Shown piece after piece: positions 50,063-64,000 of a stretch of 64,000 nucleotides of DNA. The notes beneath the pieces are model-generated. The model was given only the letters and a program-made list of their open reading frames with translations. It did not search any database and had not been told where the DNA came from. Made by a program: the position numbers and the translations under genes. The first letter of the stretch is position 1; every line of letters starts with the position of its first letter. This DNA comes from Methanomassiliicoccales archaeon (GTDB lineage Archaea; Thermoplasmatota; Thermoplasmata; Methanomassiliicoccales; UBA472), in contig JAPKYK010000002.1 in assembly GCA_026394395.1 (NCBI GenBank), positions 183,653 to 247,652 of the forward strand. The letters are read 5' to 3'.

Positions 50063-50137
50063 AGGGGAGCACTCCGTCCGCACTGAACATCCTTCTTTCT
50101 CATATCCATTCGTAGCGGCACCCCATGGGACGCCAGA

Positions 50138-50488
50138 TTATTTACCGGTTTGCCGGGGTTTGAAGAACCCGGCCCTTTCCATCGCTTGGCGAGCGACAGC
50201 ATTGCTCGGCCCGTCCCCCCTGGCCACGTTGACCGAGACCCCGTCCCCGGCCGCCTCGGCAATCCTGCCCACACCGTGATTGGTGAAGCCCGGACACAAC
50301 AGGAACGATTGCACGCCATCTCGAACCAGTTCCCGGCACAGCTCCACCGCCTGATCCTCGTCCCTCACCAGCACGGTGGTCAACTGGTAGAGCGAGGTCT
50401 CGACCACGGTCCTGTGCCGCGACGGCTCCGCGTCCGGGGTCATGGCCACCATGGCCACCATGGCCGCTCTGAACTTATCCTTAGTCAT
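50138..50488 (-). CDS. Small hypothetical alpha/beta protein
   Basis: Start ATG 50488 (MTKDKFRAAMVAMVAMTPD...), 116 aa. No family was recognised with confidence. Confidence 0.5.
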   Translation of the reverse strand: MTKDKFRAAMVAMVAMTPDAEPSRHRTVVETSLYQLTTVLVRDEDQAVELCRELVRDGVQSFLLCPGFTNHGVGRIAEAAGDGVSVNVARGDGPSNAVARQAMERAGFFKPRQTGK

Positions 50489-50639
50489 ACATGGAACATG
50501 GCATCGCCAGATTATTAATTGACGGGCAGTTTTAGTTATCACGGTCGATCGAATTCTAACCGCTCAATATCGAGAGAAGGTAATATAAGCCGTTCAAAAT
50601 CTATTTCATACGGTCCTTGGGAAGAGGACGAGGGGAAAG

Positions 50640-52123: not shown

Positions 52124-53695
52124 TTATCCGTTCAACCAGGACACGATCCCCTGGATGTCCTTGGTGCCCGTGGGAATGGATAGTACAGTCTGGCTACGCG
52201 GTAGGATGACCCCTTTCCGCCACTCCCCCTCTACCAAGAAGAGGACCTTGGCGTCGAACGTAGACAACCTCCCGGACAAAGACAGTAGCTCCCCTTCCCG
52301 GCCGCCGGTCAGGTCTACGATGAGTCGCGCGGCCTTCAGTTCCTGAACGGACCGCATCGAAGAGACGAAAAGGACGGACTCCTCGGGCGTCACCAGGTGC
52401 GGCAGGAAGCCGAAAAGCTCCTGGTTCATGAGGTACAGGTGCTCCTTGACCTGGTAGACAACCTCCACGGTGTCCTTCTCCCGGTTCATCGTGCCGTAGA
52501 TCACGGATTGGCCAGCCGCGGAGAGCGCCTCGGCTACGGTCGCCTCCGGCGGCTTGGAATGATAATCGCCGCAATCAGAGAAAATGACCAGGTGTTTGAA
52601 GTCCTCCTTCCGCCGCACCTGGCCCAGGCGGTCGATGACCTCCTGATTTTTCAACGGCCTCAGCTTCCTGCGCACCTTCCTTTTGAACAGCAGGCGAGAG
52701 CGTTTGTCCCCTTTCAGGTACTCGTCGCGGAACATGCGAAAGCCTCGGGAGAACCGGCGCTCCTTGCGCATGGCGTTGCCCTTGCCGCCCTTTCCCTCCA
52801 GCTCCCGAGCTTGATTGATAAGATACTCGAAGCCCTTCAAACGTACGGTGATCCGTTCCACCTCGGGCGAGCCGGGGTCCTTTTGCAAGAGCGCCTCGAC
52901 CTCCCGACGCATCTGGTTGTAGTACGCCAGGGTCAGGTCGTTGAACCGCCAGGGCTGCCCGTGCTTCTTCTCGTAGCGCTCGCGGTTGCGCTCGAAGAGC
53001 GCTTGATAGTCCTTCTCCACCAGCTTCTTGAAGGACAGGCTGCCCTTGTGATAGATGAAGCATCCTTCGTTGATCACCAGGCGGTAGCCGGCCTTCTTCA
53101 CCCTCAGGCAATAATCGTCGTCCTCGAACATGCCTATGCTGAACTCTTCGTCCAGCAGCCCGACCTTGTCCAGGACGTCGCGACGCATTGCCACGCAGTA
53201 GAAGCCCAGCTTCTCCGTGTCGAAGAGATGCCCCTTGTTCTTCGCCGTGTAACGCCCGGCCACCTCCACATAGTTCTCTTCGTTAAGGGATGGGAGCATG
53301 ATCATCTGCTCATTCCCAGCAGAGTTAGTGACAGGGCACATCAGGCCGATGGAGCGGTCCCTCTCCAACGGCGTCAGCAGCGCGTCCAGCCAGCCCGGTG
53401 TCATCAATGTGTCGTTGTTCAACAGGACGATGCGGTCGCCGGTGGCCGCGCGCAGACCGTCGTTGTTCCCGCCAGCGTAGCCTTTGTTGCTCTCGTTCAG
53501 GACCACCTTGACGTTGCCATGCTCCTTCTCCACCGTGCGCAGGTAATCAGACGTGCCGTCGGTGGAGGCGTTGTCCACCAGGACCAGCTCGATATCGTCA
53601 GCGTTCGTGAACTTGAAGATGCTCTCGACGCAGGGGACGGTGCCCTCCTTCAGCTGGTTGTAGGTAAGGACCACTACGCTCGCTCTCATGGCCAC
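52124..53695 (-). CDS. Family 2 glycosyltransferase with a ~220-aa C-terminal extension of unknown function
   Basis: 523 aa; ASVVVLTYNQ...LVLVDNASTDGT...NKGYAGGNNDG...LLNNDT is a GT2 (GT-A) signature. Confidence 0.88.
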   Translation of the reverse strand: MAMRASVVVLTYNQLKEGTVPCVESIFKFTNADDIELVLVDNASTDGTSDYLRTVEKEHGNVKVVLNESNKGYAGGNNDGLRAATGDRIVLLNNDTLMTPGWLDALLTPLERDRSIGLMCPVTNSAGNEQMIMLPSLNEENYVEVAGRYTAKNKGHLFDTEKLGFYCVAMRRDVLDKVGLLDEEFSIGMFEDDDYCLRVKKAGYRLVINEGCFIYHKGSLSFKKLVEKDYQALFERNRERYEKKHGQPWRFNDLTLAYYNQMRREVEALLQKDPGSPEVERITVRLKGFEYLINQARELEGKGGKGNAMRKERRFSRGFRMFRDEYLKGDKRSRLLFKRKVRRKLRPLKNQEVIDRLGQVRRKEDFKHLVIFSDCGDYHSKPPEATVAEALSAAGQSVIYGTMNREKDTVEVVYQVKEHLYLMNQELFGFLPHLVTPEESVLFVSSMRSVQELKAARLIVDLTGGREGELLSLSGRLSTFDAKVLFLVEGEWRKGVILPRSQTVLSIPTGTKDIQGIVSWLNG

Positions 53696-53704
53696 CCTTC
53701 CCCA

Positions 53705-56482
53705 TCAATCCGTGTTCTTTAGAACCTTTCGCTTCCTCTGGCCGGACCGCTCCATCTCCTTCAGGTGGTTGGCGATGTCCAGGAAGCGCTGGTCCCAGGA
53801 GCTGTTCCGGGCCACCTCGATGCGCTTGGCCCTCAGGGCCTCGTCGTTTTCTCCTAATGCGGCCAGGATCCCCCTCTCGAACTCCGTGTCCCCCTCGTAA
53901 AGGTAGCAGACCTCGGCGTACCGCTCCATCTCCGGCAGCCGGACGCTTACGACAGGCTTGCCACTGCTGATGTACTCGTAGAACTTGACCGGGTTGGTGG
54001 CCATGGTCAGGGGGACCACCCGGAAGGGGATGATGCAGACGTCGAAGTAATAAAGGTAGCCGGGCAGGTCCTTGTACGGCAGCTCCCCCAGCAGATGGAC
54101 GTTGGACAACCGTTTCAGCCCGTTGACATCACAACCAAGGGTAGAGCCGATCAGCACGAAGTTCCATTCCGGATGCTTCTCCGCGCAACGGGCCACTACC
54201 TGCGGGTCGAACCATTCGGAGATGGCCCCGTGATAGCCGATTATCGGCCTCTTCAGGGAGTCGAGCTTGCCGTTCGGGAACAGGGTGTGGAACATGTTGA
54301 AGTCGGTGCCGTTGCGCACCAGTATGGTGCTATCGTTGAACGCCGCCGCCTTCTCGTAGAGCTTGGCCGAGCTGGTGACCACCAGATCGGCCTTCCCCAT
54401 GAGCTGCGTTTCCCGTTTCACCACCTCGGTGGCGTTGTTGCTGAAGCCGGCGTGGTCGTCCATGCAGTCGAAGATCAACGTGCCGGACACACGGGAACGG
54501 CACAGGTCGGCCAGCTGCCCCCATCCGGGGAACTGCACCAGGTAGGTGACGGACTTGGCGTCCAATCGTCTCAGCACGCCCAATAGCCCGTGCGCAACAT
54601 TGTTGAGGTCCGCCCCCCGGATACGATCCTGGTAGACGTTCAGCTTGTTGAAGGAGCTCAAACGGAGCTCGTAGATGTGCTCCCGCAGCTTGCCCAGGGT
54701 CACATCCTTCAACGCCTCGGCGTCGTTGAGGTACCGGGCGCCCTTCGGCGTCAGGTCCATGTGAACGAAGATGACCGTGTACCCGTTATCGGCGAAGCGC
54801 GACACCAGCTGCTGCGGTCTCTGCCAGCGGAACTCCCAGGGTATGACCGGGAAGACCACCAGGACCTTCCGTCCGTCGGCGTTGGCCTCCACCTCCTCGA
54901 GGTTGGACGGCTCTGAACGATAGAACATGCCCTGGACCTTGGAAGGGGCCAGCTGCAGGGTCACGCTCTTGAACGTGGCCACCAGGCCGTCGGACTTGAG
55001 CTTATCTACAGCCTGCTTCTGCAGGCGAGCGAACTTCTCTATCCTTCCGATGGAGGGGATGCTGTCCAGGAACTCCAGCCGCAGCTGCATGCTGCGGGCC
55101 CAGTCGGACATGGTCATGAGTTCGGCCTGCTTGGCCATGAAGCGGTCGGTCATGTCCTGCAGGCGGACGAACTGCTCATCGCGCTGTTGAATCGCCTCGG
55201 TGATGCTGGCCTCGGCCTCGGCCAGCTCGATGTCCTGCCGCGCCATGGCCTCCCGGGCGATCAGGAGGTCGTTCTGGCTGATGTTCAGTTCGTCCCTCAT
55301 TTGTTGGGAGAGAATCCTCTCTCCCTCCAGCTCATCGATCAGCTGATGATTGCGCTTCTTCACGTCCTCCAGTTCCCAGGTGGTCTGAACTAGGCGTTCC
55401 TTTTCCTTCTCCAGTTCCTTAATGAGCTGGAAGGCGTGGTCCCGTTCAAATTCCATCTGGGCCTGCACGGCCATCTTACGCAGCCTCTCTGATTCCAGAT
55501 CAACCCGCAAGGTGCCCAACAATCCGTCTTTATCTGCCAGTGACGTTTCGTAACGGACGATGGCGTCAGCCATCTCGCCTAATTTCTTTTCCTGGTTGTG
55601 GAGTTGATCATCTTGTAAACGGGCATTAAGCAGCATCTCGCTAAGAGCGGTCTTTGTAGCATCCAGCTCCAATCTGACAGAGTTTAGCTGTTGCTCCCGG
55701 TCTTGTAGGAAGGTTTGACTTGCCAGCTGATGAGACCTCTTACAATATTGCGGGGGAACCATGTGAGAACGGTCCTTTCCAAAAACCATGTCGATGAACT
55801 TTTCGCACGCCTCTCTATACACTCCCCACAAATCCTTGGGGATCTCTAATTCCATAAGGGCCTCTGGGAATGTCAGCAATGGTCCTAATCTCCGCTCTTG
55901 TTTCAGAAAGAGGACGTACAGGGCACGATATAGAACAAAAGACCGGGGGACATGGGAATCGAACACCCATTCGTGATCGGTTATCCAGTAACGCCCGCTC
56001 CCGTCAATGATAATATTATCGAAGGTCAAATCGAGGTTTGTCACGGGCATCAGGTCGATCAAGAAGGATTCTGGTACATCTTGGAGAAGTTCGTTCACGA
56101 ATCCTTCGATACTCGCCCTTCCATCCACAGATCCTAATGAAGCCAGATAGGTCTGGTACTTTTTAAGCAGACCGATCAAGCCTGCCCGATCGTTCCTCTT
56201 CGCCAGGGTTAGAAGGGCTTGCTCGAAGGAGGCACCTTCAATATAATCGAACTCCACGGCATCGTCTATTACAGTGCCCGATGGTATGTTGGCATCTGTC
56301 AGCTTATCCCTCAACAACTGACCGCCTCTAAAAATATTGATGATGTGAGGTATCCCTTCTGGTGAAAGAGCTCGTTTGAGGACCTTACGACCTTCAGACG
56401 TGGACAGGACGGTCGTTTCAGTACGGTACGAAGAAAGTCTTTCCCGATTGTACTTAATAAAGTCGATCCTTCGCTGGGTCAT
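53705..56482 (-). CDS. Tripartite protein: N-terminal protein-kinase-like domain, ~220-aa coiled coil, C-terminal GT-B (GT1/GT4-like) glycosyltransferase
   Basis: 925 aa. The N-terminal region has VLKR (beta3 Lys), FDYIEG (hinge), NLDLTFDNIII (catalytic-loop D..N) and YWITDHEW (metal-binding D), resembling APH/LPS-kinase/WbdD-type kinases. Residues ~260-480 are heptad-rich and low-complexity (Q/E/L/R). The C-terminal part has VLVVFPVIPWEFRWQRPQQL and a GT-B E..E region. Confidence 0.75.
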   Translation of the reverse strand: MTQRRIDFIKYNRERLSSYRTETTVLSTSEGRKVLKRALSPEGIPHIINIFRGGQLLRDKLTDANIPSGTVIDDAVEFDYIEGASFEQALLTLAKRNDRAGLIGLLKKYQTYLASLGSVDGRASIEGFVNELLQDVPESFLIDLMPVTNLDLTFDNIIIDGSGRYWITDHEWVFDSHVPRSFVLYRALYVLFLKQERRLGPLLTFPEALMELEIPKDLWGVYREACEKFIDMVFGKDRSHMVPPQYCKRSHQLASQTFLQDREQQLNSVRLELDATKTALSEMLLNARLQDDQLHNQEKKLGEMADAIVRYETSLADKDGLLGTLRVDLESERLRKMAVQAQMEFERDHAFQLIKELEKEKERLVQTTWELEDVKKRNHQLIDELEGERILSQQMRDELNISQNDLLIAREAMARQDIELAEAEASITEAIQQRDEQFVRLQDMTDRFMAKQAELMTMSDWARSMQLRLEFLDSIPSIGRIEKFARLQKQAVDKLKSDGLVATFKSVTLQLAPSKVQGMFYRSEPSNLEEVEANADGRKVLVVFPVIPWEFRWQRPQQLVSRFADNGYTVIFVHMDLTPKGARYLNDAEALKDVTLGKLREHIYELRLSSFNKLNVYQDRIRGADLNNVAHGLLGVLRRLDAKSVTYLVQFPGWGQLADLCRSRVSGTLIFDCMDDHAGFSNNATEVVKRETQLMGKADLVVTSSAKLYEKAAAFNDSTILVRNGTDFNMFHTLFPNGKLDSLKRPIIGYHGAISEWFDPQVVARCAEKHPEWNFVLIGSTLGCDVNGLKRLSNVHLLGELPYKDLPGYLYYFDVCIIPFRVVPLTMATNPVKFYEYISSGKPVVSVRLPEMERYAEVCYLYEGDTEFERGILAALGENDEALRAKRIEVARNSSWDQRFLDIANHLKEMERSGQRKRKVLKNTD

Positions 56483-56485
56483 GGT

Positions 56486-57382
56486 TTAACGCCTGCAGAA
56501 CACCAGGAATGAATTGGCCATCAGAGAGTATGCCCCGTTCATCAATAAGCTGTCGCACGTTAGACCCTCATCGAACAGGGCAAAGCGCTCCTGATCGTAG
56601 TTAGGTGACATTTTGCCCATATCGCCAATCGAAGGAAGTAAACGGTCGGAATAGATGCATTCTGGCAATTTGTAATCTGGATACGGATAATAGAACTCTA
56701 GGTCTGAGAACCCTGTCTCCACGAGCATATTTCTTATCTCTTCCCGTCCGAAAGTGCGAAATCCCTCCTCTCCAGGATATCCCTCCAATCCTTGGAACAG
56801 TACGCCAGAGTGGTCCTCCGGTGTCCCAGCCCAATATTTCAATCCCAGCTTGTTCTCTATGGCCAAGATCAAAGTACCGTTGTCCTTAAGCGCGGAAATG
56901 GCGTGTTTAAGCATTTCCTGATAGGGTTGGGGGGAACGTTGGTATATACCAGCGTATTCCAGGACACCAATCAGGGTGACGTAATCGAACCCCTTCAAGC
57001 CACCAATGTTGTCGAACTTGCCAGCGTATACGGTCAGGTTCTGCATCGTGCTGTGCCTGGCTGCTATGATGCTTGCCCGTCGCGGAGATATTTCCACGGC
57101 GGTCACCGAACGAACTTTTTCACAGAACAGGCCAGTTAGAGCTCCGCAGCCCGCACCAATTTCCAGCAACGACGCCTCCTTCGAGAAAGGGTACCATTCC
57201 AGAAGGTTCTTCCGTCGTTGGTCTAGATGATATAGTACAGCCCATCGCTGGTCATGGCGTATCGCATCTTCGAGATCGTTACCCGATCTCACCAAGGTGA
57301 GTATGTCCTCCTCAACATCACCATCAGAATATTGGTCCTGGTCGCTCACGTGGTCCAAGATCAATTTCGGTCCATTGTTCAT
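56486..57382 (-). CDS. Class I SAM-dependent methyltransferase
   Basis: 298 aa; LLEIGAGCGALTGLF is motif I. The stop is 3 nt upstream of the start of the kinase/coiled-coil/GT gene. Confidence 0.85.
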   Translation of the reverse strand: MNNGPKLILDHVSDQDQYSDGDVEEDILTLVRSGNDLEDAIRHDQRWAVLYHLDQRRKNLLEWYPFSKEASLLEIGAGCGALTGLFCEKVRSVTAVEISPRRASIIAARHSTMQNLTVYAGKFDNIGGLKGFDYVTLIGVLEYAGIYQRSPQPYQEMLKHAISALKDNGTLILAIENKLGLKYWAGTPEDHSGVLFQGLEGYPGEEGFRTFGREEIRNMLVETGFSDLEFYYPYPDYKLPECIYSDRLLPSIGDMGKMSPNYDQERFALFDEGLTCDSLLMNGAYSLMANSFLVFCRR

Positions 57383-57624
57383 AGAACCTTCACTCCCGGA
57401 GGTCTGAAGTTGTATTGTTGGAATTCATATGGTGATATATACTTATTGAAACCCGGGGAACTGGAATAAAATAATAAATGGGTTGGCGGGTCCGCTCAGC
57501 GGAAGATTGGAATTGCATAGAAAAGAGCTGTTTAATGATATCACTGGGGCATGGATCAAAGAAACTAATAATGAAACGATGTAAATCGTCATACATCAAG
57601 GCGACCTGTTCGATTATACTTTTT

Positions 57625-57728
57625 GGCTCTGACGCTAAACTGATGTTTCTATCAGAAATGATGGTTAGCCAGTTATTCTATATCATTCACTGGTAAGAGC
57701 TGTTGATATAGTTTGGCGTCAAAACCAT
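57625..57728 (+). repeat. Left copy of a ~104-bp inverted repeat (MITE-like unit with its own 16-bp terminal inverted repeats)
   Basis: 57625-57704 matches the reverse complement of 59314-59393 at 79/80 positions. The inner 24 nt match at 20/24. Unit ends: GGCTCTGACGCTAAAC (57625-57640) versus the reverse complement of 57711-57726, GGTTTTGACGCCAAAC. Confidence 0.9.
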
Positions 57729-57805
57729 TAAGGTTGAATTTGCCCATCATGAAGTCCGTTTCATTCAATTCGAAATGAGCAAAGAGGTCGAGCGGAGATA
57801 TTCAT

Positions 57806-59248
57806 ATGGAAGATAGGAAGGTAACCCGGGTCATTTCGGTCATGCTCTTATTAATGTTACTGTCTGGTTCGTTCCTCGTCATTGCTGGGGATACGGTATA
57901 TGCAGCCCAAGAAGGTGACTATACGTATACGATAGACGAAGGAATGGCCACCATAACAGGTTATACCGGCACGGGAAACAACATTACGATCCCCGACATG
58001 CTCGGAGGATGTCCTGTCGTGACCATCGGCAATAATTCCTTTTCTGGTCACGACTCCTTGACATCTGTGACCATCTCAGGCAATGTCACCACCATCGGAG
58101 AGGGTGCTTTCTCCGCCTGCCCCAACATAGTATCGGTGTTCATCCCGAGCAGCGTGAACACCATCGGCATGGGAGCGTTCCTGTATTGCTATGCCATGGA
58201 CTCGATAGATGTTGACGCGGCCAATCAGAACTTTACTAGCGTCGACGGGGTGCTCTACAACAAGAACGTGACAATCCTGATACAATTCCCGGGCGGAAAG
58301 GCTGGCGAGATGGTCATCCCTGAAAGCGTCACCTCCGTCGGTTCGAGAGCGTTCAACACCTGCCCGTTCCTGATCGGCATCACGATCTCCTGCAACGTGA
58401 CGACCATCGAGGAATATGCCATCGTCCAATGCGCATCTCTGAGATGGATCGATGTGAATGCATCGAACCCGTCCTTCGCCAGCGCCCTTGGCATGCTTTA
58501 TGATAAGAATTTAACGACCCTGATCCAATGCCCGGGCGGAGCGTCTGGCGAGCTGGAGATCCCTGAGAGCACGTCGGCCATCGGGAACTGGGCCTTCGCA
58601 TATTGCCCTTCATTGACCTCGGTCACCGTTCCCGGTAACGTAACGACCATCGGTTTCGGGGCGTTCCATTCCTGTACGTCCCTGACAACCATTACGTTCC
58701 TCGGTCTGGTGGCGCCGGTACTGGTCGGGGACCTGTGGATCGCGGAGACCGACCCGGAATTGCGGGGACACGCATACGCCGCCTCGAACTTCCCGATGCC
58801 TGGGGAAACCTTTTATGGACTGGAGATGGGAGAGGTCGTCCCGATCGTTCCCAGCGCACCTCTCGCAGTCTTTGCCGTTCCATATGATGGACATACCCTC
58901 TTAATGTGGGGGCCCCCCATCAGCGACGCGGGCTACGCCATCGCGAACTATTCGATCTATCGTTCGGTCGCAGACACCAGCAATTACAGTCTGATAGCCA
59001 TCGTCCCATGTTATGTTTATGTCTACAACGATACCAACCTGACCAAGGGAGAGATGTACTGGTACAAGCTCGCAGCCAACAATGTTAACGGCGAAGGCGT
59101 TCATAGCGTTGGCGTGTCCGTGACCATCCCTTTGGATGATGAGGCTACCAGCGTCAATCCTATCGTGATCTATGTGGCAGTGGTCGCGATTATCGCAATA
59201 CTGACCCTAATATTGCTTATGATGTATAAACGTAAGAATACGAATTAG
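57806..59248 (+). CDS. BspA-type leucine-rich-repeat surface protein with Fn3 domain and C-terminal TM anchor
   Basis: 480 aa with a signal-like N-terminus. Repeats of the type IP.SVT.IG..AF..C..L..I are LRR_5/BspA-like. An Fn3-like segment (PSAPL...W..P..D.GY.I..Y.IYR) follows. The end is IVIYVAVVAIIAILTLILLMMYKRKNTN. Confidence 0.85.
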   Translation: MEDRKVTRVISVMLLLMLLSGSFLVIAGDTVYAAQEGDYTYTIDEGMATITGYTGTGNNITIPDMLGGCPVVTIGNNSFSGHDSLTSVTISGNVTTIGEGAFSACPNIVSVFIPSSVNTIGMGAFLYCYAMDSIDVDAANQNFTSVDGVLYNKNVTILIQFPGGKAGEMVIPESVTSVGSRAFNTCPFLIGITISCNVTTIEEYAIVQCASLRWIDVNASNPSFASALGMLYDKNLTTLIQCPGGASGELEIPESTSAIGNWAFAYCPSLTSVTVPGNVTTIGFGAFHSCTSLTTITFLGLVAPVLVGDLWIAETDPELRGHAYAASNFPMPGETFYGLEMGEVVPIVPSAPLAVFAVPYDGHTLLMWGPPISDAGYAIANYSIYRSVADTSNYSLIAIVPCYVYVYNDTNLTKGEMYWYKLAANNVNGEGVHSVGVSVTIPLDDEATSVNPIVIYVAVVAIIAILTLILLMMYKRKNTN

Positions 59249-59289
59249 ACGATGATGGTCAAACACCTTCCATTTTCCTTTTATATACT

Positions 59290-59393
59290 ATGGCTTTGAC
59301 GCTAAACTCTATAAACAGCTCTTACCAGTGAATGATATAGAATAACTGGCTAACCATCATTTCTGATAGAAACATCAGTTTAGCGACAGAGCC
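59290..59393 (-). repeat. Right copy of the ~104-bp inverted repeat
   Basis: Reverse complement of the left copy, with a single mismatch in the outer 80 nt (59386 vs 57632). Ends: GGCTTTGACGCTAAAC (59292-59307) and GTTTAGCGACAGAGCC (59378-59393). Confidence 0.9.
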
Positions 59394-59445
59394 CTTTTTT
59401 ATTATCCGGATGTTTTATTAAATGATAACCAACCGGTCCATTCAT

Positions 59446-60990
59446 TTATCGAGGTTTGTAGACCCCAAAAAGCTCAGTGCCACGCCCTCCATTCTTAAAG
59501 TGATCGAGCTCAGCCTCCACCATTCGGACGATCAACTGACGGTCATCGAGGTTCTGGGCATTGTAATTGTCGTTATATGCGAGATTCAGTAAACGCCACA
59601 GGAAGCAATTTCTACGAAACACGTCTAATGGCTTGAACCATCGTTCTAACGTAGGCTCGATATCTTCGCTACGGATCCCTTCAAAACAACCCACTGAGTA
59701 ATCGTTGTCCGGAATTTCCGTATCCACAGTGCCAGTATTACGATTCAACCTGAATTTTTCTGGCAGCTCTTTAAATATCCCATTCGCTACGTCCAAAGCT
59801 TCCGGCCACAGTCGATTGCCATTCCTTCCCACATACTCTCCAATGCTCCAGAACTCACCATCATCGTTCAGACTTTTATGACAGAACTCAATTAGCTTTT
59901 CTAGTTCAACAATATGATGGAGCGCAGAGACACAAATGATGATGTCCCATTTTTCACCCGAATATTGTAAATCATTCGCGTCCGCTTCGATGAGATCAAG
60001 GCTCACCGTTGGAGCGAACTGTTTCGATGCCATGCAAAGTAGATCTGGATTAATATCGAGAAGCGACCATTCCACATTATTCCCTACGTGCGAAGCAAAA
60101 TCTGCTTCTATCCTGGCCGCTCCACTACACAATGACAGGACCTTCAGTGGCTTACCATTATCAGCTTTTAATTTCAATCGCCCTACGAAATCTGGGGCGG
60201 ACTCTGTGATGTTTGCAGCCAGCAAGCGCGACCCGTAGGCGTAAGGGGACTCATGAGAAAGCGGTCCGATGTGATTTAATCGATCTATCTGATATGGCAC
60301 AGCATTGATTTCACTACAATGCAATTTTCTAACTGGTCGGGCTTGACCTTGAGCTATGTTCGACCGTTCATCCTGCATTTGAGAATACATGGTGTGACGA
60401 TAGACATGACTAAAATGATCGATTTCATTGCGGGACCTCTGTTCGTGAAAGGTACGAGCTTTCATCAAAGATAACCGTTCTACTCTCGCAACGCATAGTT
60501 CGGCGATGGCGAGCCAATCCCCGATCGGATCATTTTTCGGCCCTGGAAGGCATTTAAAAATGAAATATCCTTGCCTACCCATTAAAAATGATACATCGAG
60601 ATGCGCTTCCCTCCATTGTGATGTCTGCTGACCACCGGAAATAGAGAAAGAAGCAATCATCTCCACATCTTTTCGTTTCTCTAATCGCTCAGAGAAGCTC
60701 ACTTCTAAGACCAAACCATCGCTACTGATTTTCGGTATCCCAGCACCATATCGGACATATAATTTCGTGTCTTTCTTAACTTTAATGCTCTTTGTGATCA
60801 CCAATTCTTCGCCAGCCAACAAGATCAACGATTGGCGCTTGTCGATGCAATGGGCGACCTGCATCCATCTTGGAAACATAACTCCATTCGGAGTTCCTGA
60901 GATCCGGAATGGTGATCCATCCTCGAGATAAAACTCATCCGAAAAGGAGCCCTTGCCATCATCGATTGCTTGAGTAGAAATATCGGTCAT
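59446..60990 (-). CDS. Class I SAM-dependent methyltransferase with ~250-aa N-terminal domain of unknown function
   Basis: 514 aa. VLSLCSGAARIE (motif I-like) and DIIICVSALHH sit in the C-terminal half. The gene lies in lower-GC DNA between wzt and the repeat-flanked cassette. Confidence 0.75.
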   Translation of the reverse strand: MTDISTQAIDDGKGSFSDEFYLEDGSPFRISGTPNGVMFPRWMQVAHCIDKRQSLILLAGEELVITKSIKVKKDTKLYVRYGAGIPKISSDGLVLEVSFSERLEKRKDVEMIASFSISGGQQTSQWREAHLDVSFLMGRQGYFIFKCLPGPKNDPIGDWLAIAELCVARVERLSLMKARTFHEQRSRNEIDHFSHVYRHTMYSQMQDERSNIAQGQARPVRKLHCSEINAVPYQIDRLNHIGPLSHESPYAYGSRLLAANITESAPDFVGRLKLKADNGKPLKVLSLCSGAARIEADFASHVGNNVEWSLLDINPDLLCMASKQFAPTVSLDLIEADANDLQYSGEKWDIIICVSALHHIVELEKLIEFCHKSLNDDGEFWSIGEYVGRNGNRLWPEALDVANGIFKELPEKFRLNRNTGTVDTEIPDNDYSVGCFEGIRSEDIEPTLERWFKPLDVFRRNCFLWRLLNLAYNDNYNAQNLDDRQLIVRMVEAELDHFKNGGRGTELFGVYKPR

Positions 60991-61056
60991 ATAATAATAT
61001 GAAAGATATCAAATTGCTTATTTAGAACATTTTAATGATATTAAGTTATTTTACAA

Positions 61057-62334
61057 TTATCCAATCCGTTCAATATTCATCTCCATACCCATGTCAAAAT
61101 AGCCCACGACGAACTTTGATGCAACCACTTGAAAAAAGAATATGTCATAGAGGCGATGATGCACAACAAACTCGCCCCGTTCGTCAAAACGGGTGCATCC
61201 CAGGGAAACAAGGTACTGCCCCCCCGCTAGCGTCATGGTCTGCCGGAAGGATACCACATACTCCTCTCCTTCGTGCAAGAGCGGTATATCCAGCATCTCA
61301 AATTGGGAGTTTGTTCCGGTCAGCTCGTTCCCCTTGATATCCTTGATGGTCAAAGCGAAAATGGGGGACTGCACATCTTCTTTGATACGGACGCGCATCT
61401 TGAACGTGCACTCCCTCTGCTTGATTACGGACTGGATTATGGCACCGTCTTCATCAAAGAGGCCGAAATCGACAATGCACATTTTTCTGTCCCCATAATC
61501 AAGTTTATTGGGGTTCAGGACCAGGCTTGATTTCCAAGGAACATCCTGAGACGTAGTAGATCGTTCCTCGATCTCCACCCCATCATCCGATTGGGTATGG
61601 AGGTTCACAGCGACCTTCTTGTATAGGTCGACCATACTTTTCGGGCTACCCTCGGCCAATTTCTTACCTTCGTGTAAAACCATCGCTCTATCACAGTACT
61701 TCAGCACGCTGTTCATGTCGTGCGTGACGAAAAGGATGGTCTTCCCGGCCTTCTTGAAGTCCTCGAACTTGCGGTAGCACTTGGCCTGGAAGTAGATGTC
61801 GCCCACGCTCAGCGCCTCGTCGACGATGAGAACCTCCGGGTCGACGTTGATAGCGAGCGCGAACGCCAGGCGAACGAACATGCCGCTGCTGTACGTTTTC
61901 ACCGGTTGGTCTATGAACTCCCCGATGTCGGCAAACTCCACGATGGCCGGGACCAGCTTCTCTATCTCCTGACGGCTCATCCCTTGCATGGTCCCATTGA
62001 GGAAGATGTTCTCCATGCCGGTCATCTCCGGATTGAAGCCCGCCCCCAGTTCTAGGAGCGCGGCCACTTTACCCTTCACCACGACCTCGCCGGAGGTCTG
62101 GTAGGACACCCCAGTCAATATCTTGAGCAATGTGGACTTGCCAGAACCGTTCCGGCCCAGTATCCCAACGGTCTCTCCCTGATGCACCACCAGGTCCACA
62201 CCTTCCAGGGCGTGGAAGTCCGTGTGGTACTTCCGGCGACGGGGGTCCAAGGCCTCCTTGGCCCGGTCCGACTGCTTCTTGTAGAGCCGATATACCTTCC
62301 CCACCCCCTTGATGGAAATAACCTCGTGGTCCAT
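61057..62334 (-). CDS. wzt: Polysaccharide/O-antigen-type ABC exporter ATP-binding protein with C-terminal Wzt-like carbohydrate-binding domain
   Basis: 425 aa. The N-terminal part is the TagH/Wzt type (Walker A GRNGSGKSTLLK, SSGMFVRLAFA, Walker B LIVDEALSVGD). An extra ~170-aa beta-rich C-terminal domain is present. Confidence 0.85.
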   Translation of the reverse strand: MDHEVISIKGVGKVYRLYKKQSDRAKEALDPRRRKYHTDFHALEGVDLVVHQGETVGILGRNGSGKSTLLKILTGVSYQTSGEVVVKGKVAALLELGAGFNPEMTGMENIFLNGTMQGMSRQEIEKLVPAIVEFADIGEFIDQPVKTYSSGMFVRLAFALAINVDPEVLIVDEALSVGDIYFQAKCYRKFEDFKKAGKTILFVTHDMNSVLKYCDRAMVLHEGKKLAEGSPKSMVDLYKKVAVNLHTQSDDGVEIEERSTTSQDVPWKSSLVLNPNKLDYGDRKMCIVDFGLFDEDGAIIQSVIKQRECTFKMRVRIKEDVQSPIFALTIKDIKGNELTGTNSQFEMLDIPLLHEGEEYVVSFRQTMTLAGGQYLVSLGCTRFDERGEFVVHHRLYDIFFFQVVASKFVVGYFDMGMEMNIERIG

Positions 62335-62343
62335 CAGTTCACC

Positions 62344-63135
62344 TCACAGCACGTCCGCCAGGTGCGGCCTCAGCTTTTGGAAGACTATGCTTCCGGCGAT
62401 CAGGAACACGATGGTCATGGCCCAGAAGATAACGGTGGCGAGCGGGTCCAAGGTGAACTCGCCTAAGATCGAGGTTCGATAGCCGTCGACCACGTAGGCC
62501 ATGGGGTTGATGAGCATGAGCCAGTGATACTCTTCCGGTATAGCGTTCTGCGACCACAGTATCGGCGTGAGATAGATTCCGAACTGCAGGATGATAGTAA
62601 GCATCTGCCGCATGTCCTTGAAGAACACCACGATGGATGATGTGAGGAAGCTAAGCCCCCAGACAAGTATGAATGTGCAAAATAGGTAGTATAGCACGCC
62701 AAGGGAAGAAAGATGCGCACCCTCTCCATAAATGACCAGGAAAATCACTAAGATAACGTGGAAGATGATGCTGGTGAGGAGCGAGGAAATGATCTTGACT
62801 GTAGGTAGGATCTCAACCTTGAAGACCATCTTCTTGACTAAGAACGAATACTGAGTGAGAGCATTAGTGGCATTGGACCAGGCGTCAGAGAAGAAGAACC
62901 AAGGAATGAGGCCGATAATGAACCATAGGACGAACGGCACACCCTCGACAGTGGTTATGCCGAGAGCGAACTCGAAGACGAACCAGAAGAGGAAGATCAG
63001 GCTCAGGGGCTGCAATATCTCCCAGAGCAGGCCGTAATAGGAGCCGACGTAGCGGGTGCGGAAGTCAGATTTGGTCAGGGAACGGATAAGTCCCAAGGAT
63101 CGAACATTTTCGCGAATGATGTCCTGCGCGCCCAT
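62344..63135 (-). CDS. wzm: ABC-2 type polysaccharide exporter permease
   Basis: 263 aa with six TM helices, immediately upstream of wzt. Confidence 0.85.
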   Translation of the reverse strand: MGAQDIIRENVRSLGLIRSLTKSDFRTRYVGSYYGLLWEILQPLSLIFLFWFVFEFALGITTVEGVPFVLWFIIGLIPWFFFSDAWSNATNALTQYSFLVKKMVFKVEILPTVKIISSLLTSIIFHVILVIFLVIYGEGAHLSSLGVLYYLFCTFILVWGLSFLTSSIVVFFKDMRQMLTIILQFGIYLTPILWSQNAIPEEYHWLMLINPMAYVVDGYRTSILGEFTLDPLATVIFWAMTIVFLIAGSIVFQKLRPHLADVL

Positions 63136-63241
63136 CCTTCAAACTGCCCTCCCTTCATCCTGATGCCATTCGAGCCTTTTAGCTATAATACACCGCATAG
63201 ACATATAAAAATCGGCTTAGAAAATGATGAGCTCAAGGGTC

Positions 63242-64000
63242 TCACCGCAACCTTCTGATCATTAACGTTATGGCAATGGCAGCAAGCGACACAACCAAAG
63301 TCCCTGATAGTACGTAGATAGGGGTATCTTCATAGGTATTGAACGGAGGGCCCACCGGGTTGGTTTTCACTTCCGAATGAGGAATATAGACAATCATCGC
63401 CTGTCCTCCAGTGGAATAGACGACCTCGTTCCGTCCTTCCGTTTGGCTCAAAATATTTTCAATTGGAGTGTAGGATTGACGAGAACTTCCATTATAATTT
63501 GTAGATATCGCCCAACCATTTTTTACATTCCAACTGGATAGGTATAGTAGGGCATCTGTTTGATTTTCCGTCCACTGATACCTGAGAATTTTAATATTGG
63601 TTCCTTCACCAGCGAAGATGGGAAATCTATGCCAATCAGCTGTCACTGGATAGTTGCCCCGATGATCTACATCACTGACCCATTTGGCTGATAGTACGTC
63701 AGAATCTGAGTATACGGACCAACTGGTATTTGGGTTGAGGGCGAATGAGTTGGTATAATGACCAGTCGCATAGTAAATAGTCCCAGTATTGAAGAGTAAA
63801 AATGTGATAAGAAAGATCGCCCCGGCCTTTTTTACGATTCCGTCACTAGCGAGCCTCGAGACGATGCTAATGTCACCAAGGTGCTTACCCCGGAAGAACG
63901 ACACAACAGCATATAGGCCAAGGATAAGGAATCCCGACAGAAATATGTAGGCCACCTGGAAGAACCGGGCGAAATAGAAGGAGTACGACAGGCGGGGTAT
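63242..64000 (-). CDS. C-terminal part of a large polytopic membrane protein with an extracytoplasmic domain (DUF2206-like / glycan-assembly associated); 5' end outside the window
   Basis: The frame stays open upstream of the track's GTG at 63955 to the window edge (...IPRLSYSFYFARFFQVAYIFLSGFLILG). It has hydrophobic helices, a ~170-aa soluble domain and a terminal TM helix (LSGTLVVSLAAIAITLMIRRLR). Confidence 0.6.
   Translation of the reverse strand: MPRLSYSFYFARFFQVAYIFLSGFLILGLYAVVSFFRGKHLGDISIVSRLASDGIVKKAGAIFLITFLLFNTGTIYYATGHYTNSFALNPNTSWSVYSDSDVLSAKWVSDVDHRGNYPVTADWHRFPIFAGEGTNIKILRYQWTENQTDALLYLSSWNVKNGWAISTNYNGSSRQSYTPIENILSQTEGRNEVVYSTGGQAMIVYIPHSEVKTNPVGPPFNTYEDTPIYVLSGTLVVSLAAIAITLMIRRLR

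What the first reader, a model, noticed from the sequence alone, without database searches (positions are those of the whole stretch)
52124..63135. Archaeal Wzm/Wzt-type glycan export locus with the components of a bacterial chain-terminating (capped O-antigen-like) system
Minus-strand gene order is: wzm, then wzt with an extra C-terminal beta-rich domain, a methyltransferase with an unknown N-terminal domain, the repeat-flanked insertion, a second methyltransferase, a kinase-like/coiled-coil/GT-B fusion, and a GT2. In E. coli O8/O9a, ABC-transporter-dependent O-antigen chains are capped by WbdD (methyltransferase +/- kinase on a coiled-coil stalk). The cap is read by the Wzt C-terminal carbohydrate-binding domain before export. 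The same parts list is present here: a Wzt with a C-terminal add-on, SAM methyltransferases, a kinase-like domain and a coiled coil. This suggests that an archaeon builds a terminally modified, length-controlled surface polymer by this logic, which to my knowledge is not an experimentally characterised archaeal pathway. The DNA is also compositionally distinct. Single 60-nt lines counted by hand gave 47% GC (60001-60060) and 33% (63481-63540), against ~68% at 12001-12060.
Basis: partly seen in the sequence, partly recalled or inferred. Interest (0 to 1): 0.7.

Follow-up and report, generated by a model that had tools for sequence, protein, structure and literature searches.

The report
Archaeal capped-glycan ABC export locus
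A methanogenic archaeon (Methanomassiliicoccales) carries a complete, bacterial-type gene set for building a surface sugar polymer of controlled length, capping its end and exporting it only once capped, a pathway I found described only for bacteria.

Summary
Window 52124-64000 (minus strand) encodes wzm, and a wzt with a true Wzt_C carbohydrate-binding domain (Pfam E 2e-37). It also encodes a beta-sandwich+methyltransferase protein, a 298-aa methyltransferase, a 925-aa protein and a GT2. The 925-aa protein has an N-terminal domain that folds as an APH/choline-kinase-like kinase with intact catalytic residues, then about 230 Pro-free coiled-coil residues and a TuaH-like GT-B.

In 83 loci carrying the kinase-like domain (mostly bacterial), the 298-aa methyltransferase is fused to it (31) or directly upstream (43). 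A CBM-bearing Wzt lies within 5 kb in 66. The methyltransferase is about 40% identical to that of Klebsiella pneumoniae O7 ORF6, a proven methylphosphate chain terminator. It is not a WbdD orthologue.

Coiled-coil length among archaeal homologues changes in whole heptads, as expected for a length ruler.

The host is a Methanomassiliicoccales archaeon. The locus is syntenic in relatives, where a DUF2206 membrane protein sits where a bacterial locus has an O-antigen-ligase-like gene. The closest bacterial counterparts are Firmicutes and Acholeplasmatales, so interdomain transfer is likely.

This is a new archaeal member of a known bacterial kind. The chemistry and the final acceptor remain inferred.

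The parts
63242..64000 (-). 3' part of a DUF2206 polytopic membrane-protein gene. The full gene encodes 800 aa and runs off the window end. Candidate extracytoplasmic transferase or ligase for the exported glycan.
   Evidence: Pfam DUF2206, E 4.6e-15 on the window part. The full-length 800-aa gene is seen in Logan contigs of the same genome (L084; Pfam E 2e-31). Hydropathy gives ~13 TM segments, a 200-aa soluble domain and a C-terminal TM. It lies immediately upstream of wzm on the same strand in L001, L005, L086, L090-L093 and L100. Its role is inferred from position only.
62344..63135 (-). wzm, the ABC-2 permease of the glycan exporter.
   Evidence: ABC2_membrane, E 3e-17. NCBIfam galactan Wzm/RfbD, E 3.6e-10, and KpsM, E 1e-7, both far below their cut-offs.
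61057..62334 (-). wzt, the nucleotide-binding subunit with a C-terminal carbohydrate-binding module (Wzt_C, residues 277-415, nt 61090-61506).
   Evidence: ABC_tran, E 4e-21, plus Wzt_C, E 2.3e-37. PDB Aquifex Wzt 8dku, E 1e-80. The CBM alone is 46% identical to that of Tepidibacter thalassicus and 57% to that of the L001 archaeon.
59446..60990 (-). Accessory 514-aa protein: N-terminal beta-sandwich (residues ~15-170) plus a class I SAM methyltransferase (residues ~280-380+). Lineage-specific; probably an additional glycan O-methyltransferase.
   Evidence: Pfam methyltransferase domains. AF2 model, pLDDT 78.6 overall and ~90 for the beta domain. Foldseek returns methyltransferases plus a 164-column match to Endo-D GH85, 3gdb/2w91, E 2e-7. 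Present in L086 and L090 but absent from L001 and L005. A 60%-identical bacterial homologue lies in a Nitrosomonadales wzm-wzt(Wzt_C) locus. GC3 is 46%.
57449..59465 (.). Insertion relative to the closest relative. It holds a BspA-type LRR surface-protein gene (57806-59248, + strand) flanked by 104-nt inverted repeats (57625-57728 and 59290-59393). Not part of the glycan machinery.
   Evidence: LRR_5, E 8e-38, with a signal peptide and a C-terminal TM. Inverted repeat 95% complementary. The segment corresponds to only 172 nt in L086. Each arm self-folds, z -3.75.
56486..57382 (-). 298-aa class I SAM methyltransferase; the methyltransferase half of a split methyltransferase-kinase chain terminator.
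   Evidence: Methyltransf_23/12/25/11. Its stop lies 3 nt from the start of the 925-aa gene. Its homologue is fused N-terminally to the kinase-like domain in 31 of 83 loci and lies <300 bp upstream in 43 of 83. It is 40% identical (E 1.6e-45) to the methyltransferase domain of K. pneumoniae O7 ORF6, using a sequence reconstructed from the OCR text of Fig. S9 of PMC11231755.
55769..56482 (-). Kinase-like N-terminal domain (residues 1-238) of the 925-aa protein; the kinase half of the terminator.
   Evidence: AF2 pLDDT 89.7. Foldseek top matches are MphH, APH(3'), LicA and CurKC; 225 matches at E<=1e-3. Invariant K36, N149, D151, N156, D169 and E171. No Pfam match even at E 10. The family has 1,714 representatives at E<=1e-3.
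55058..55747 (-). Coiled-coil spacer (residues ~246-475) of the 925-aa protein; candidate molecular ruler.
   Evidence: No Pro between residues 245 and 475, with raised 3.5-residue hydrophobic periodicity. Weak SMC match at residues 265-469. Linker lengths in archaeal homologues fall in 8 classes, all equal to 5 mod 7.
53705..54865 (-). GT-B glycosyltransferase module (residues ~540-925) of the 925-aa protein; polymerase component.
   Evidence: Glyco_trans_1_4, E 2.5e-7. NCBIfam TuaH, E 5.7e-27, below its cut-off. PDB GumK, E 0.012. 45% identical over 514 aa to the same module in an Acholeplasmatales protein of the same architecture.
52124..53695 (-). 523-aa GT2 glycosyltransferase with an uncharacterised C-terminal half; second polymerase or adaptor GT.
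   Evidence: Glycos_transf_2, E 3e-26, residues 6-178. Conserved directly downstream in L001, L086 and the P0022 contig. GC3 is 84%, like the host.

Best explanation
This is an ABC-transporter-dependent 'polymerase-terminator' glycan assembly locus of the bacterial type, resident in a Methanomassiliicoccales archaeon.

Proposed mechanism, by analogy with the bacterial prototypes:
1. A lipid-linked glycan is elongated on the cytoplasmic face of the membrane by the GT-B module of the 925-aa protein together with the neighbouring GT2.
2. The same 925-aa protein holds a kinase-like domain at the far end of a ~230-residue coiled coil. With the 298-aa methyltransferase encoded just upstream, it caps the growing end, most likely with a methylphosphate. 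Only chains long enough to reach the distal catalytic site are terminated.
3. The Wzt C-terminal carbohydrate-binding module recognises the cap, and Wzm/Wzt export the finished chain.
4. The adjacent DUF2206 polytopic membrane protein is the best candidate for handing the exported glycan to its final acceptor.

The 514-aa beta-sandwich methyltransferase is a lineage-specific extra decoration enzyme. The BspA gene is an unrelated insertion.

Shown here: domain identities, the fold of the kinase-like domain, conserved catalytic residues, gene linkage across 83 loci, homology of the methyltransferase to a proven terminator, heptad-quantised coil length, and archaeal residence with synteny.

Inferred: the cap chemistry, the ruler function, CBM gating, the lipid carrier, the polymer composition and the DUF2206 role.
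For: - Wzt_C, E 2.3e-37, and the Aquifex Wzt match.
- Kinase-like fold and invariant K36, D151, N156, D169 and E171.
- In 83 loci with the kinase-like domain, the methyltransferase is fused (31) or <300 bp upstream (43). A Wzt with a Wzt_C-like tail lies within 5 kb on the same strand in 66, and Wzm is found in 55.
- Architectures in relatives include MT-kinase, kinase-coil-GT2(-GT4) and MT-kinase-GT2. These match the layout reported for K. pneumoniae O7 ORF6, which was shown in vitro to add phosphate and then methyl (PMC11231755).
- The window methyltransferase is 40% identical, E 1.6e-45, to the ORF6 methyltransferase domain.
- The coiled-coil region is Pro-free. Its length classes in archaeal homologues (229, 236, 271, 278, 285, 299, 306, 313) all equal 5 mod 7.
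- Archaeal host: Wzt, the 514-aa methyltransferase and the C-terminal 622 aa of the 925-aa protein are 100% identical to NCBI Methanomassiliicoccales MAG proteins. The window also carries eRF1 and other housekeeping genes.
- The same order DUF2206-wzm-wzt-MT-(kinase/coil/GT-B)-GT2 occurs on a 1.33-Mb Methanomassiliicoccales contig and in other relatives. The P0022 contig has the same order from wzm onward, with a GT2 rather than DUF2206 upstream.
- A bacterial locus has a Wzy_C/O-antigen-ligase-like gene in the place of DUF2206.
Against: - No biochemical or glycan data exist for any archaeal member.
- No sequence match to WbdD was found.
- Sequence similarity between the kinase-like domain and the available part of the ORF6 kinase region is not significant. 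'Same kinase family as ORF6' therefore rests on position, fold class and motif only.
- Foldseek TM-scores to kinases are moderate (0.3-0.54).
- The coiled coil was inferred from sequence features, not modelled.
- No initiating phosphoglycosyltransferase was identified in the window.
- DUF2206 relatives are not always next to wzm (L094, L098, L099), and its fold was not determined.
- Archaea use dolichol-type carriers, which this transporter family has not been shown to accept.
Confidence: 0.72

Rival explanations
1. The locus makes and exports a teichoic- or teichuronic-acid-like polymer (TagGH/TuaH type) without cap-gated export. The methyltransferase and kinase-like domain would decorate internal residues rather than terminate chains.
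For: The best NCBIfam matches of the Wzt ATPase domain are TagH models (E 1e-71, below cut-off), and the GT-B resembles TuaH (E 5.7e-27, below cut-off). JGI names relatives 'teichoic acid transport system ATP-binding protein'.
Against: TagH-type names reflect only the shared ATPase domain. The protein carries a full Wzt_C CBM, which in studied systems reads a chain terminus (PMC9445017 abstract; PMC11231755). The methyltransferase is homologous to a proven terminator. The kinase-like domain sits at the distal end of a coiled coil, the hallmark of terminators.
Confidence: 0.12
2. The kinase-like domain is a small-molecule phosphotransferase (antibiotic or choline kinase type) or an inactive scaffold, unrelated to glycan capping.
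For: The top structural matches are macrolide and aminoglycoside phosphotransferases and the choline kinase LicA. No Pfam family matches.
Against: The domain is fused to a coiled coil and glycosyltransferases. In 74 of 83 loci it is fused to, or immediately preceded by, the same methyltransferase family, and in 66 of 83 it is accompanied by a CBM-bearing Wzt. Catalytic residues are invariant, so an inactive scaffold is unlikely. The ORF6 kinase of K. pneumoniae O7 also has an antibiotic kinase (AmiN) as its best structural match, yet phosphorylates the glycan.
Confidence: 0.08
3. The locus is bacterial DNA mis-binned or mis-assembled into an archaeal MAG, not an archaeal trait.
For: The nearest non-Methanomassiliicoccales relatives of every core protein are bacterial. 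GC and GC3 are atypical for the window.
Against: The locus is embedded in one 64-kb stretch with archaeal housekeeping genes (eRF1, carAB). It is flanked by DUF2206, which here was recovered only from Methanomassiliicoccales-like contigs. The same synteny, including the flanking Kelch, His_Phos_1, Iso_dh and PhoU genes, is present on an independent 1.33-Mb Methanomassiliicoccales contig and in several metagenomes. The GT2 and the GT-B part have host-like GC3.
Confidence: 0.03

Closest known systems
Klebsiella pneumoniae O7 ORF6 methyltransferase-kinase terminator/polymerase with Wzm/Wzt (Kelly et al., J Biol Chem 2024, PMC11231755)
   Same: - Domain order: methyltransferase, then an APH-like kinase that profile libraries do not annotate, then a coiled coil, then C-terminal glycosyltransferase module(s).
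- Encoded next to wzm/wzt.
- The window methyltransferase is ~40% identical to the ORF6 methyltransferase domain.
- A DxxxxN catalytic loop is present in both.
- For both kinase domains the best structural match is an antibiotic kinase.
   Different: - Here the methyltransferase is a separate gene, as in 43 of 83 related loci.
- The GT module is a single TuaH-like GT-B instead of two GT2 modules.
- I saw no CBM between the kinase and the coil.
- The kinase domains are not significantly similar in sequence over the part I could compare.
- The host is an archaeon with no LPS.
E. coli O9a / K. pneumoniae O3 WbdD-WbdA-Wzm/Wzt system
   Same: Same logic: a methyltransferase plus kinase on a coiled-coil ruler caps the chain, and the Wzt CBM reads the cap before export (PMC3482155 and PMC11231755).
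   Different: No detectable sequence relationship. WbdD carries no glycosyltransferase and recruits a separate polymerase through its C-terminus. Here the polymerase module is fused to the coil.
K. pneumoniae O12 / Raoultella WbbB (terminator-coiled coil-GT-GT in one polypeptide)
   Same: The terminator is N-terminal and distal, the coiled coil is central, and the polymerising GT is C-terminal in a single protein (as described in PMC11231755).
   Different: The WbbB terminator is a Kdo transferase, not a kinase/methyltransferase.
Uncharacterised MT-kinase-like / Wzt_C modules of Firmicutes and Acholeplasmatales (Paenibacillus, Clostridium, Lachnospiraceae, Saccharibacillus, Tepidibacter and others)
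   Same: Same gene module and order. Wzt is 53-57% identical over its full length. The Acholeplasmatales protein has the same kinase-like/coil/GT-B architecture, 45% identity over 514 aa, and is followed by a GT2.
   Different: One bacterial locus examined in detail (L003) has a Wzy_C/WaaL-like gene where the archaeon has DUF2206. The archaeal coil is ~150 residues longer than the Acholeplasmatales one.

Membership tests
ABC-transporter-dependent polymerase-terminator glycan assembly with CBM-gated export | Wzm permease plus Wzt ATPase | tested here: met
   ABC2_membrane, E 3e-17; ABC_tran, E 4e-21; PDB Aquifex Wzt, E 1e-80.
ABC-transporter-dependent polymerase-terminator glycan assembly with CBM-gated export | Wzt carries a C-terminal carbohydrate-binding module (Wzt_C) | tested here: met
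   PF14524, E 2.3e-37, 128.6 bits against a 30.4-bit cut-off, full profile coverage.
ABC-transporter-dependent polymerase-terminator glycan assembly with CBM-gated export | A terminating enzyme placed at the distal end of an extended coiled coil | tested here: met
   Kinase-like domain at residues 1-238, followed by a ~230-residue Pro-free heptad-periodic segment and then the GT-B. The coiled coil is inferred from sequence and from heptad-quantised indels, not from a model.
ABC-transporter-dependent polymerase-terminator glycan assembly with CBM-gated export | The glycan carries a non-reducing terminal cap that the CBM binds and that export requires | not testable with these tools
   Needs glycan analysis and binding or export assays.
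ABC-transporter-dependent polymerase-terminator glycan assembly with CBM-gated export | Coiled-coil length sets chain length (molecular ruler) | not testable with these tools
   Indirect only: 8 length classes among archaeal homologues, all 5 mod 7.
K. pneumoniae O7 ORF6-type methyltransferase-kinase terminator | Methyltransferase domain homologous to ORF6 residues ~1-300 | tested here: met
   BLASTP 40% identity over 242 aa, E 1.6e-45, against the ORF6 sequence reconstructed from the OCR text of Fig. S9. It is 38% identical to the Cyanobacterium and Agrobacterium orthologues. The sequence contains OCR errors.
K. pneumoniae O7 ORF6-type methyltransferase-kinase terminator | Kinase domain directly after the methyltransferase, with a catalytic Asp in a DxxxxN loop | tested here: inconclusive
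   In fused relatives the kinase-like domain follows the methyltransferase directly. D151xxxxN156 is invariant, and ORF6 orthologues show [FL][IL]DA[VI]PxN. However, the profile search against the partial ORF6 kinase region is not significant.
K. pneumoniae O7 ORF6-type methyltransferase-kinase terminator | Adds phosphate and then methyl to the chain terminus | not testable with these tools
   Shown in vitro for ORF6 (PMC11231755); not testable here.
E. coli O9a WbdD family | Sequence homology to the WbdD methyltransferase and kinase domains | tested here: not met
   PDB sequence searches with the 925-aa protein, MT298 and the fusion P0025 did not return WbdD. WbdD is not among the top 50 Foldseek matches.
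Archaeal N-glycosylation (agl) locus with flippase | AglB oligosaccharyltransferase, agl GTs and a flippase in place of ABC export | tested here: not met
   No such genes lie in 50-64 kb or in the orthologous loci. NCBIfam AglG and AglJ matches are far below cut-off (48 against 440 bits; 17 against 325 bits).
Protein-kinase-like (APH/choline kinase) fold | Bilobal kinase fold with beta3 Lys, catalytic-loop Asp/Asn and a metal-binding Asp | tested here: met
   Foldseek: 225 PDB matches at E<=1e-3, probability 1.00 for the top matches, TM 0.3-0.54. K36, D151, N156 and D169 are invariant in 10 diverse sequences.

The most novel reading that the evidence does not exclude
Wall-less Methanomassiliicoccales may use this horizontally acquired machinery, coupled to the archaea-specific DUF2206 membrane protein acting as a ligase or GT-C-like transferase, to build an LPS-O-antigen-like product. 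That product would be a capped, length-controlled polysaccharide attached to an archaeal membrane lipid (a lipoglycan) or to surface proteins. This would be the first ABC-transporter-dependent glycan pathway in Archaea and would assign a function to DUF2206.
Probability: 0.3. Interest if true: 0.75.

Novelty: new member of a known kind. Interest (0 to 1): 0.55.

Why it matters
How archaea move lipid-linked glycans across the membrane is poorly resolved. ABC-transporter-dependent, cap-gated export has been worked out only in bacteria. I found no paper describing it in archaea in the searchable library, which covers open-access literature only.

Cultured Methanomassiliicoccales are reported to lack a wall or S-layer, or to have two membranes (PMC10673518, PMC4243693). 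Their surface chemistry is therefore an open question, and a glycocalyx or lipoglycan pathway would be directly relevant.

The locus offers four things:
- a concrete, testable candidate pathway for an archaeal surface polymer;
- a natural series of coiled-coil lengths differing by whole heptads, suited to testing the ruler idea;
- a candidate function for DUF2206;
- a clear case of interdomain transfer of a complete envelope-biogenesis module.

It also shows that a kinase-like domain family of at least 1,700 sequence clusters has no Pfam model, and that the domain is left unannotated in the public record of this genome.

Tried and rejected
- WbdD orthology. PDB sequence searches with the 925-aa protein, MT298 and a fused relative returned no WbdD, so I rejected membership while keeping the functional analogy.
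- Exact-sequence look-ups of the 925-aa protein and of its NCBI 622-aa version found no contig. The Wzt look-up succeeded.
- The profile of the kinase-like domain against the OCR-derived partial ORF6 kinase region was not significant. Only ~130 residues were available and they contain OCR errors.
- Rfam and tRNA scans of the window found nothing.
- DUF2206 gave no PDB sequence match at E 10, no other Pfam match at E 1, and no paper.
- The Foldseek search of the full 514-aa methyltransferase model is dominated by methyltransferase matches. The identity of the beta-sandwich rests on two Endo-D matches whose aligned query range is not reported, so 'CBM-like' is only a suggestion.
- One Pseudomonas homologue of the 514-aa methyltransferase is not in a glycan locus, so that family is not strictly tied to Wzm/Wzt.
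- I considered that the 104-nt inverted repeats mark an invertible (phase-variable) segment. The only relevant observation is that short-read contigs break inside the arm, which any repeat would cause. Left open.


Full report
**Observation.**
- wzm lies at 62344-63135 (ABC2_membrane, E 3e-17).
- wzt lies at 61057-62334. It has an ABC ATPase domain and a C-terminal Wzt_C domain (PF14524, E 2.3e-37, 128.6 bits against a 30.4-bit cut-off, profile positions 2-143 of 143).
- A 514-aa protein at 59446-60990 has its methyltransferase domain in the C-terminal half.
- A plus-strand BspA-type leucine-rich-repeat surface-protein gene lies at 57806-59248.
- A 298-aa class I methyltransferase lies at 56486-57382.
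- A 925-aa protein lies at 53705-56482, and a 523-aa GT2 at 52124-53695.

The best solved-structure relative of Wzt by sequence is the Aquifex aeolicus O-antigen transporter Wzt (8dku, E 1e-80), with a weak second match over the CBM. The hand-counted GC values are essentially right (46.7%, 33.3%, and 71.7% rather than ~68%).

**Host and context.** Wzt, the 514-aa methyltransferase and the C-terminal 622 residues of the 925-aa protein are 100% identical to proteins of an NCBI 'Methanomassiliicoccales archaeon' MAG on a 252-kb contig. The rest of the window encodes ordinary housekeeping functions, including carbamoyl-phosphate synthase, archaeal-type eRF1, homocitrate-synthase-like and isocitrate/isopropylmalate dehydrogenase enzymes, and a phosphate ABC importer. 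The glycan genes therefore end at about 52.1 kb on that side.

The NCBI record calls the 925-aa gene as only 622 aa (P0002), leaving the kinase-like domain and half the coil unannotated. Full-length homologues of 860-925 aa show that the long ORF is real.

**The 925-aa protein.**
- Kinase-like domain. No Pfam model matches residues 1-260 even at E 10. AlphaFold2 on an alignment of 20 homologues gave a confident model (pLDDT 89.7, pTM 0.86). Foldseek against the PDB returned 225 matches at E<=1e-3. The leaders were macrolide 2'-phosphotransferases, aminoglycoside phosphotransferases, the choline kinase LicA, a lanthipeptide-synthetase kinase domain and Rio2. TM-scores are moderate (0.3-0.54), as is common for two-lobed kinases.
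- Catalytic residues. In an alignment of ten diverse family members (24-57% identity) the invariant residues include K36, N149-x-D151-x-x-x-x-N156 and D169-x-E171. These are the ATP-anchoring lysine, the catalytic loop and the metal-binding aspartate of this fold. The domain is therefore kinase-like and probably active.
- Coiled coil. Residues ~246-475 contain no proline and show raised 3.5-residue hydrophobic periodicity. They give a weak SMC match.
- GT-B module. Residues ~540-925 are a GT-B glycosyltransferase closest to TuaH (E 5.7e-27, below cut-off) and GumK.
- Membrane association. None of the cytoplasmic enzymes has a predicted transmembrane segment.

**Link between the methyltransferase, the kinase-like domain and Wzt.** Two distant hits of the 925-aa protein (P0025 and P0028, 560 aa) are fusions of a homologue of the 298-aa methyltransferase with the kinase-like domain. 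A third (P0024, 1091 aa) is kinase-like domain, coil, GT2 and GT4. It lies in the locus Wzy_C-like, wzm, wzt(Wzt_C), methyltransferase, P0024, manC.

A scan of one genome per GTDB species with a profile of the kinase-like domain returned 80 loci. Only two were archaeal, both Methanomassiliicoccaceae. The rest were bacterial: mainly Firmicutes (Paenibacillus, Clostridium, Lachnospiraceae, Saccharibacillus, Anoxybacillus, Tepidibacter), with some Campylobacterota, Deltaproteobacteria and an Acholeplasmatales bacterium.

I tabulated neighbours in 83 loci (these 80 plus three fetched earlier) by BLASTP:
- The methyltransferase is fused N-terminally to the kinase-like domain in 31 loci.
- It is encoded <300 bp upstream on the same strand in 43 loci.
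- A Wzt with a Wzt_C-like tail lies within 5 kb on the same strand in 66 loci.
- Wzm is found in 55 loci. Most loci lacking these genes are short contigs.

This linkage is the main evidence that the three parts work together. The kinase-like family is large, with 1,714 representatives at E<=1e-3 among 1.84 billion cluster representatives.

**Relation to characterised systems.** Kelly et al. (J Biol Chem 2024, PMC11231755) showed that K. pneumoniae O7 ORF6 is built as follows: an N-terminal methyltransferase, a 223-residue domain that databases do not annotate and whose best structural match is the antibiotic kinase AmiN, a CBM, a coiled coil and two GT2 modules. In vitro it phosphorylates and then methylates the glycan terminus. 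The authors describe a terminator at the distal end of a coiled-coil ruler as the hallmark of this assembly strategy across bacteria.

I reconstructed the ORF6 N-terminal sequence and two orthologues from the machine-read text of their Fig. S9. The text contains OCR errors. The window's 298-aa methyltransferase is 40% identical to ORF6 over 242 residues (E 1.6e-45). It shares the YSDGD, LEIGAGCGAIT, TLIGVLEYA, IAIENxLGLKY, PEDH and PDYKLP blocks. Fused relatives align with the cyanobacterial orthologue into the first ~110 residues of the kinase-like domain.

A profile of the kinase-like domain does not significantly match the partial ORF6 kinase region that was available. Homology of the kinase halves therefore remains unproven, although position, fold class and a DxxxxN loop agree. 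No search returned WbdD. WbdD is a functional analogue, not a relative I could detect.

**Ruler signature.** In 19 archaeal homologues I measured the distance from the end of the kinase-like domain to the start of the GT-B, using conserved motifs. It takes the values 229, 236, 271, 278, 285, 299, 306 and 313, plus 256 in the most divergent member. All eight main classes equal 5 modulo 7, so length differences are whole heptads. That is what a continuous coiled coil whose length is under diversifying selection should show. It fits, but does not prove, a chain-length ruler. The Acholeplasmatales counterpart has the same architecture with a coil about 150 residues shorter.

**Archaeal synteny and the DUF2206 gene.** A 1.33-Mb Methanomassiliicoccales contig (L001) has DUF1616, DUF2206 (796 aa), wzm, wzt(Wzt_C), methyltransferase (301 aa), a 911-aa homologue, GT2 (521 aa) and then the same Kelch-repeat surface protein and housekeeping genes as the window. 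The closest relative (L086) has DUF2206-wzm-wzt-MT519-MT304-898 aa-GT2. The P0022 contig and several metagenome contigs repeat the core.

DUF2206 is 800 aa in this genome (L084). It has about 13 predicted transmembrane segments, a 200-residue soluble domain and a C-terminal anchor. It occupies the position that a Wzy_C/O-antigen-ligase-like protein occupies in the bacterial locus L003. Among 16 metagenomic DUF2206 loci, wzm follows immediately in five and within 4.4 kb in a sixth. Three paralog-like loci with enough downstream sequence lack it. I therefore list DUF2206 as a probable but unproven part.

**Accessory and inserted genes.** The 514-aa protein is present in the two closest relatives but absent from L001 and L005, so it is not core.
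- Its model shows an N-terminal all-beta domain (pLDDT ~90) ahead of the methyltransferase.
- Among otherwise methyltransferase matches, Foldseek lists two 164-column matches to the glycoside hydrolase Endo-D. This hints at a carbohydrate-binding-like sandwich.
- Bacterial homologues are 50-60% identical. One sits in a Nitrosomonadales wzm-wzt(Wzt_C)-sulfotransferase-multidomain GT locus, and another in Pseudomonas is unlinked.

The BspA gene lies in a ~2.0-kb segment that corresponds to 172 nt in L086. It is flanked by 104-nt inverted repeats. Each arm has its own terminal inverted repeat and self-folds.

**Composition and origin.** GC3 by gene:

| Gene(s) | GC3 |
|---|---|
| Housekeeping genes | 81-88% |
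| GT2 | 84% |
| 925-aa gene, wzt, wzm | 72-75% |
| 298-aa methyltransferase | 58% |
| 514-aa methyltransferase, DUF2206 part | 46% |

Nucleotide identity to L086 is mosaic:

| Segment | Identity to L086 |
|---|---|
| DUF2206-wzm-wzt | 87% |
| 514-aa methyltransferase | 73% |
| MT298 + kinase-like domain + coil | 66% |
| GT-B + GT2 | 82% |

Outside Methanomassiliicoccales, the nearest Wzt proteins are from Firmicutes at 53-57% identity over the full length. The CBM alone is 46% identical to that of Tepidibacter. The Acholeplasmatales protein is 45% identical over 514 residues. With only two archaeal species among 80 loci, acquisition from bacteria followed by recombination within the archaeal lineage is the simplest history. 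No tree was built.

**Mechanism and confidence.** The best reading is a polymerase-terminator pathway. The GT-B and GT2 polymerise a lipid-linked glycan. The kinase-like domain and the methyltransferase cap it at the end of a coiled-coil spacer. The Wzt CBM reads the cap, and Wzm/Wzt export the chain. DUF2206 may transfer it to the final acceptor.

I put 0.72 on this overall logic, somewhat less on a methylphosphate cap specifically, and about 0.3 on the DUF2206 role. Rivals are weaker, for the reasons given under each:
- uncapped teichoic-like export;
- a small-molecule kinase;
- mis-binned bacterial DNA.

**Novelty.** The system type is well known in bacteria, and this locus belongs to the same gene families. 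What is new is its presence, conservation and local diversification in an archaeal order, and its coupling to an archaeal membrane-protein family of unknown function. Cultured members of that order are reported to lack a wall or S-layer. Full-text searches for archaeal Wzm/Wzt systems found nothing relevant, but subscription literature was not searched. I rate it a new member of a known kind, of moderate interest.

Noticed in passing
window 57449-59465 (inverted-repeat arms 57625-57728 and 59290-59393): A BspA-type LRR surface-protein gene is bracketed by 104-nt inverted repeats that are 95% complementary. Each arm has its own terminal inverted repeat and folds on itself (z -3.75). The segment is absent from the closest relative. 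Two short-read contigs of the same genome end inside the arm. It could be a small mobile cassette or an invertible segment.
   Followed up: partly
window 55574-56482 (5' third of the 925-aa gene): The public NCBI annotation of this genome calls the gene as 622 aa (P0002, 100% identical, 67% coverage). The kinase-like domain and half the coiled coil are therefore unannotated there. The domain also has no Pfam model, although the family has >1,700 cluster representatives.
   Followed up: yes
window 55058-55747; homologues P0001-P0022: Coiled-coil linker lengths among archaeal homologues fall in eight classes (229-313 residues) that all equal 5 modulo 7. Indels are therefore whole heptads.
   Followed up: yes
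window 52124-64000 compared with L086: Conservation and GC3 are mosaic within the locus. The terminator module (MT298 + kinase-like domain + coil) is 66% identical in nucleotides between close relatives, against 82-87% for the transporter and the GT modules. GC3 ranges from 46% to 84%. This resembles recombination hot spots in bacterial O-antigen loci.
   Followed up: partly
window 50640-52100 (+): A Kelch-repeat beta-propeller protein with a signal peptide and a C-terminal membrane anchor lies next to the GT2. The same neighbour is present in the distant relative L001. It may be a glycosylated surface protein or simply a syntenic neighbour.
   Followed up: no
window 19492-26859 (-): A 2,455-aa ORF covers a second low-GC island (50-56% GC). 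It may be a giant surface protein. Not examined.
   Followed up: no
window 48472-50542 (-): A second, unrelated ABC-2 transporter pair (ABC2_membrane + ABC_tran) with a DUF6506 gene lies just outside the glycan locus.
   Followed up: no
window 45298-47730 (+): An 810-aa AAA_16 ATPase with MalT-like TPR repeats (STAND-type regulator architecture).
   Followed up: no
L006 355-3699 (Acholeplasmatales MAG): The closest bacterial counterpart of the kinase-like/coil/GT-B protein (45% identity over 514 aa, followed by a GT2) is in a MAG assigned to Acholeplasmatales, which to my knowledge is a wall-less bacterial lineage. This parallels the reportedly wall-less archaeal hosts.
   Followed up: partly
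L088 1207-9671 (Nitrosomonadales metagenome contig): Another Wzm-Wzt(Wzt_C) locus pairs a sulfotransferase with a 1,233-aa methyltransferase/GT4/GT2 protein and a homologue of the 514-aa methyltransferase. This suggests a possible sulfate-type cap.
   Followed up: no
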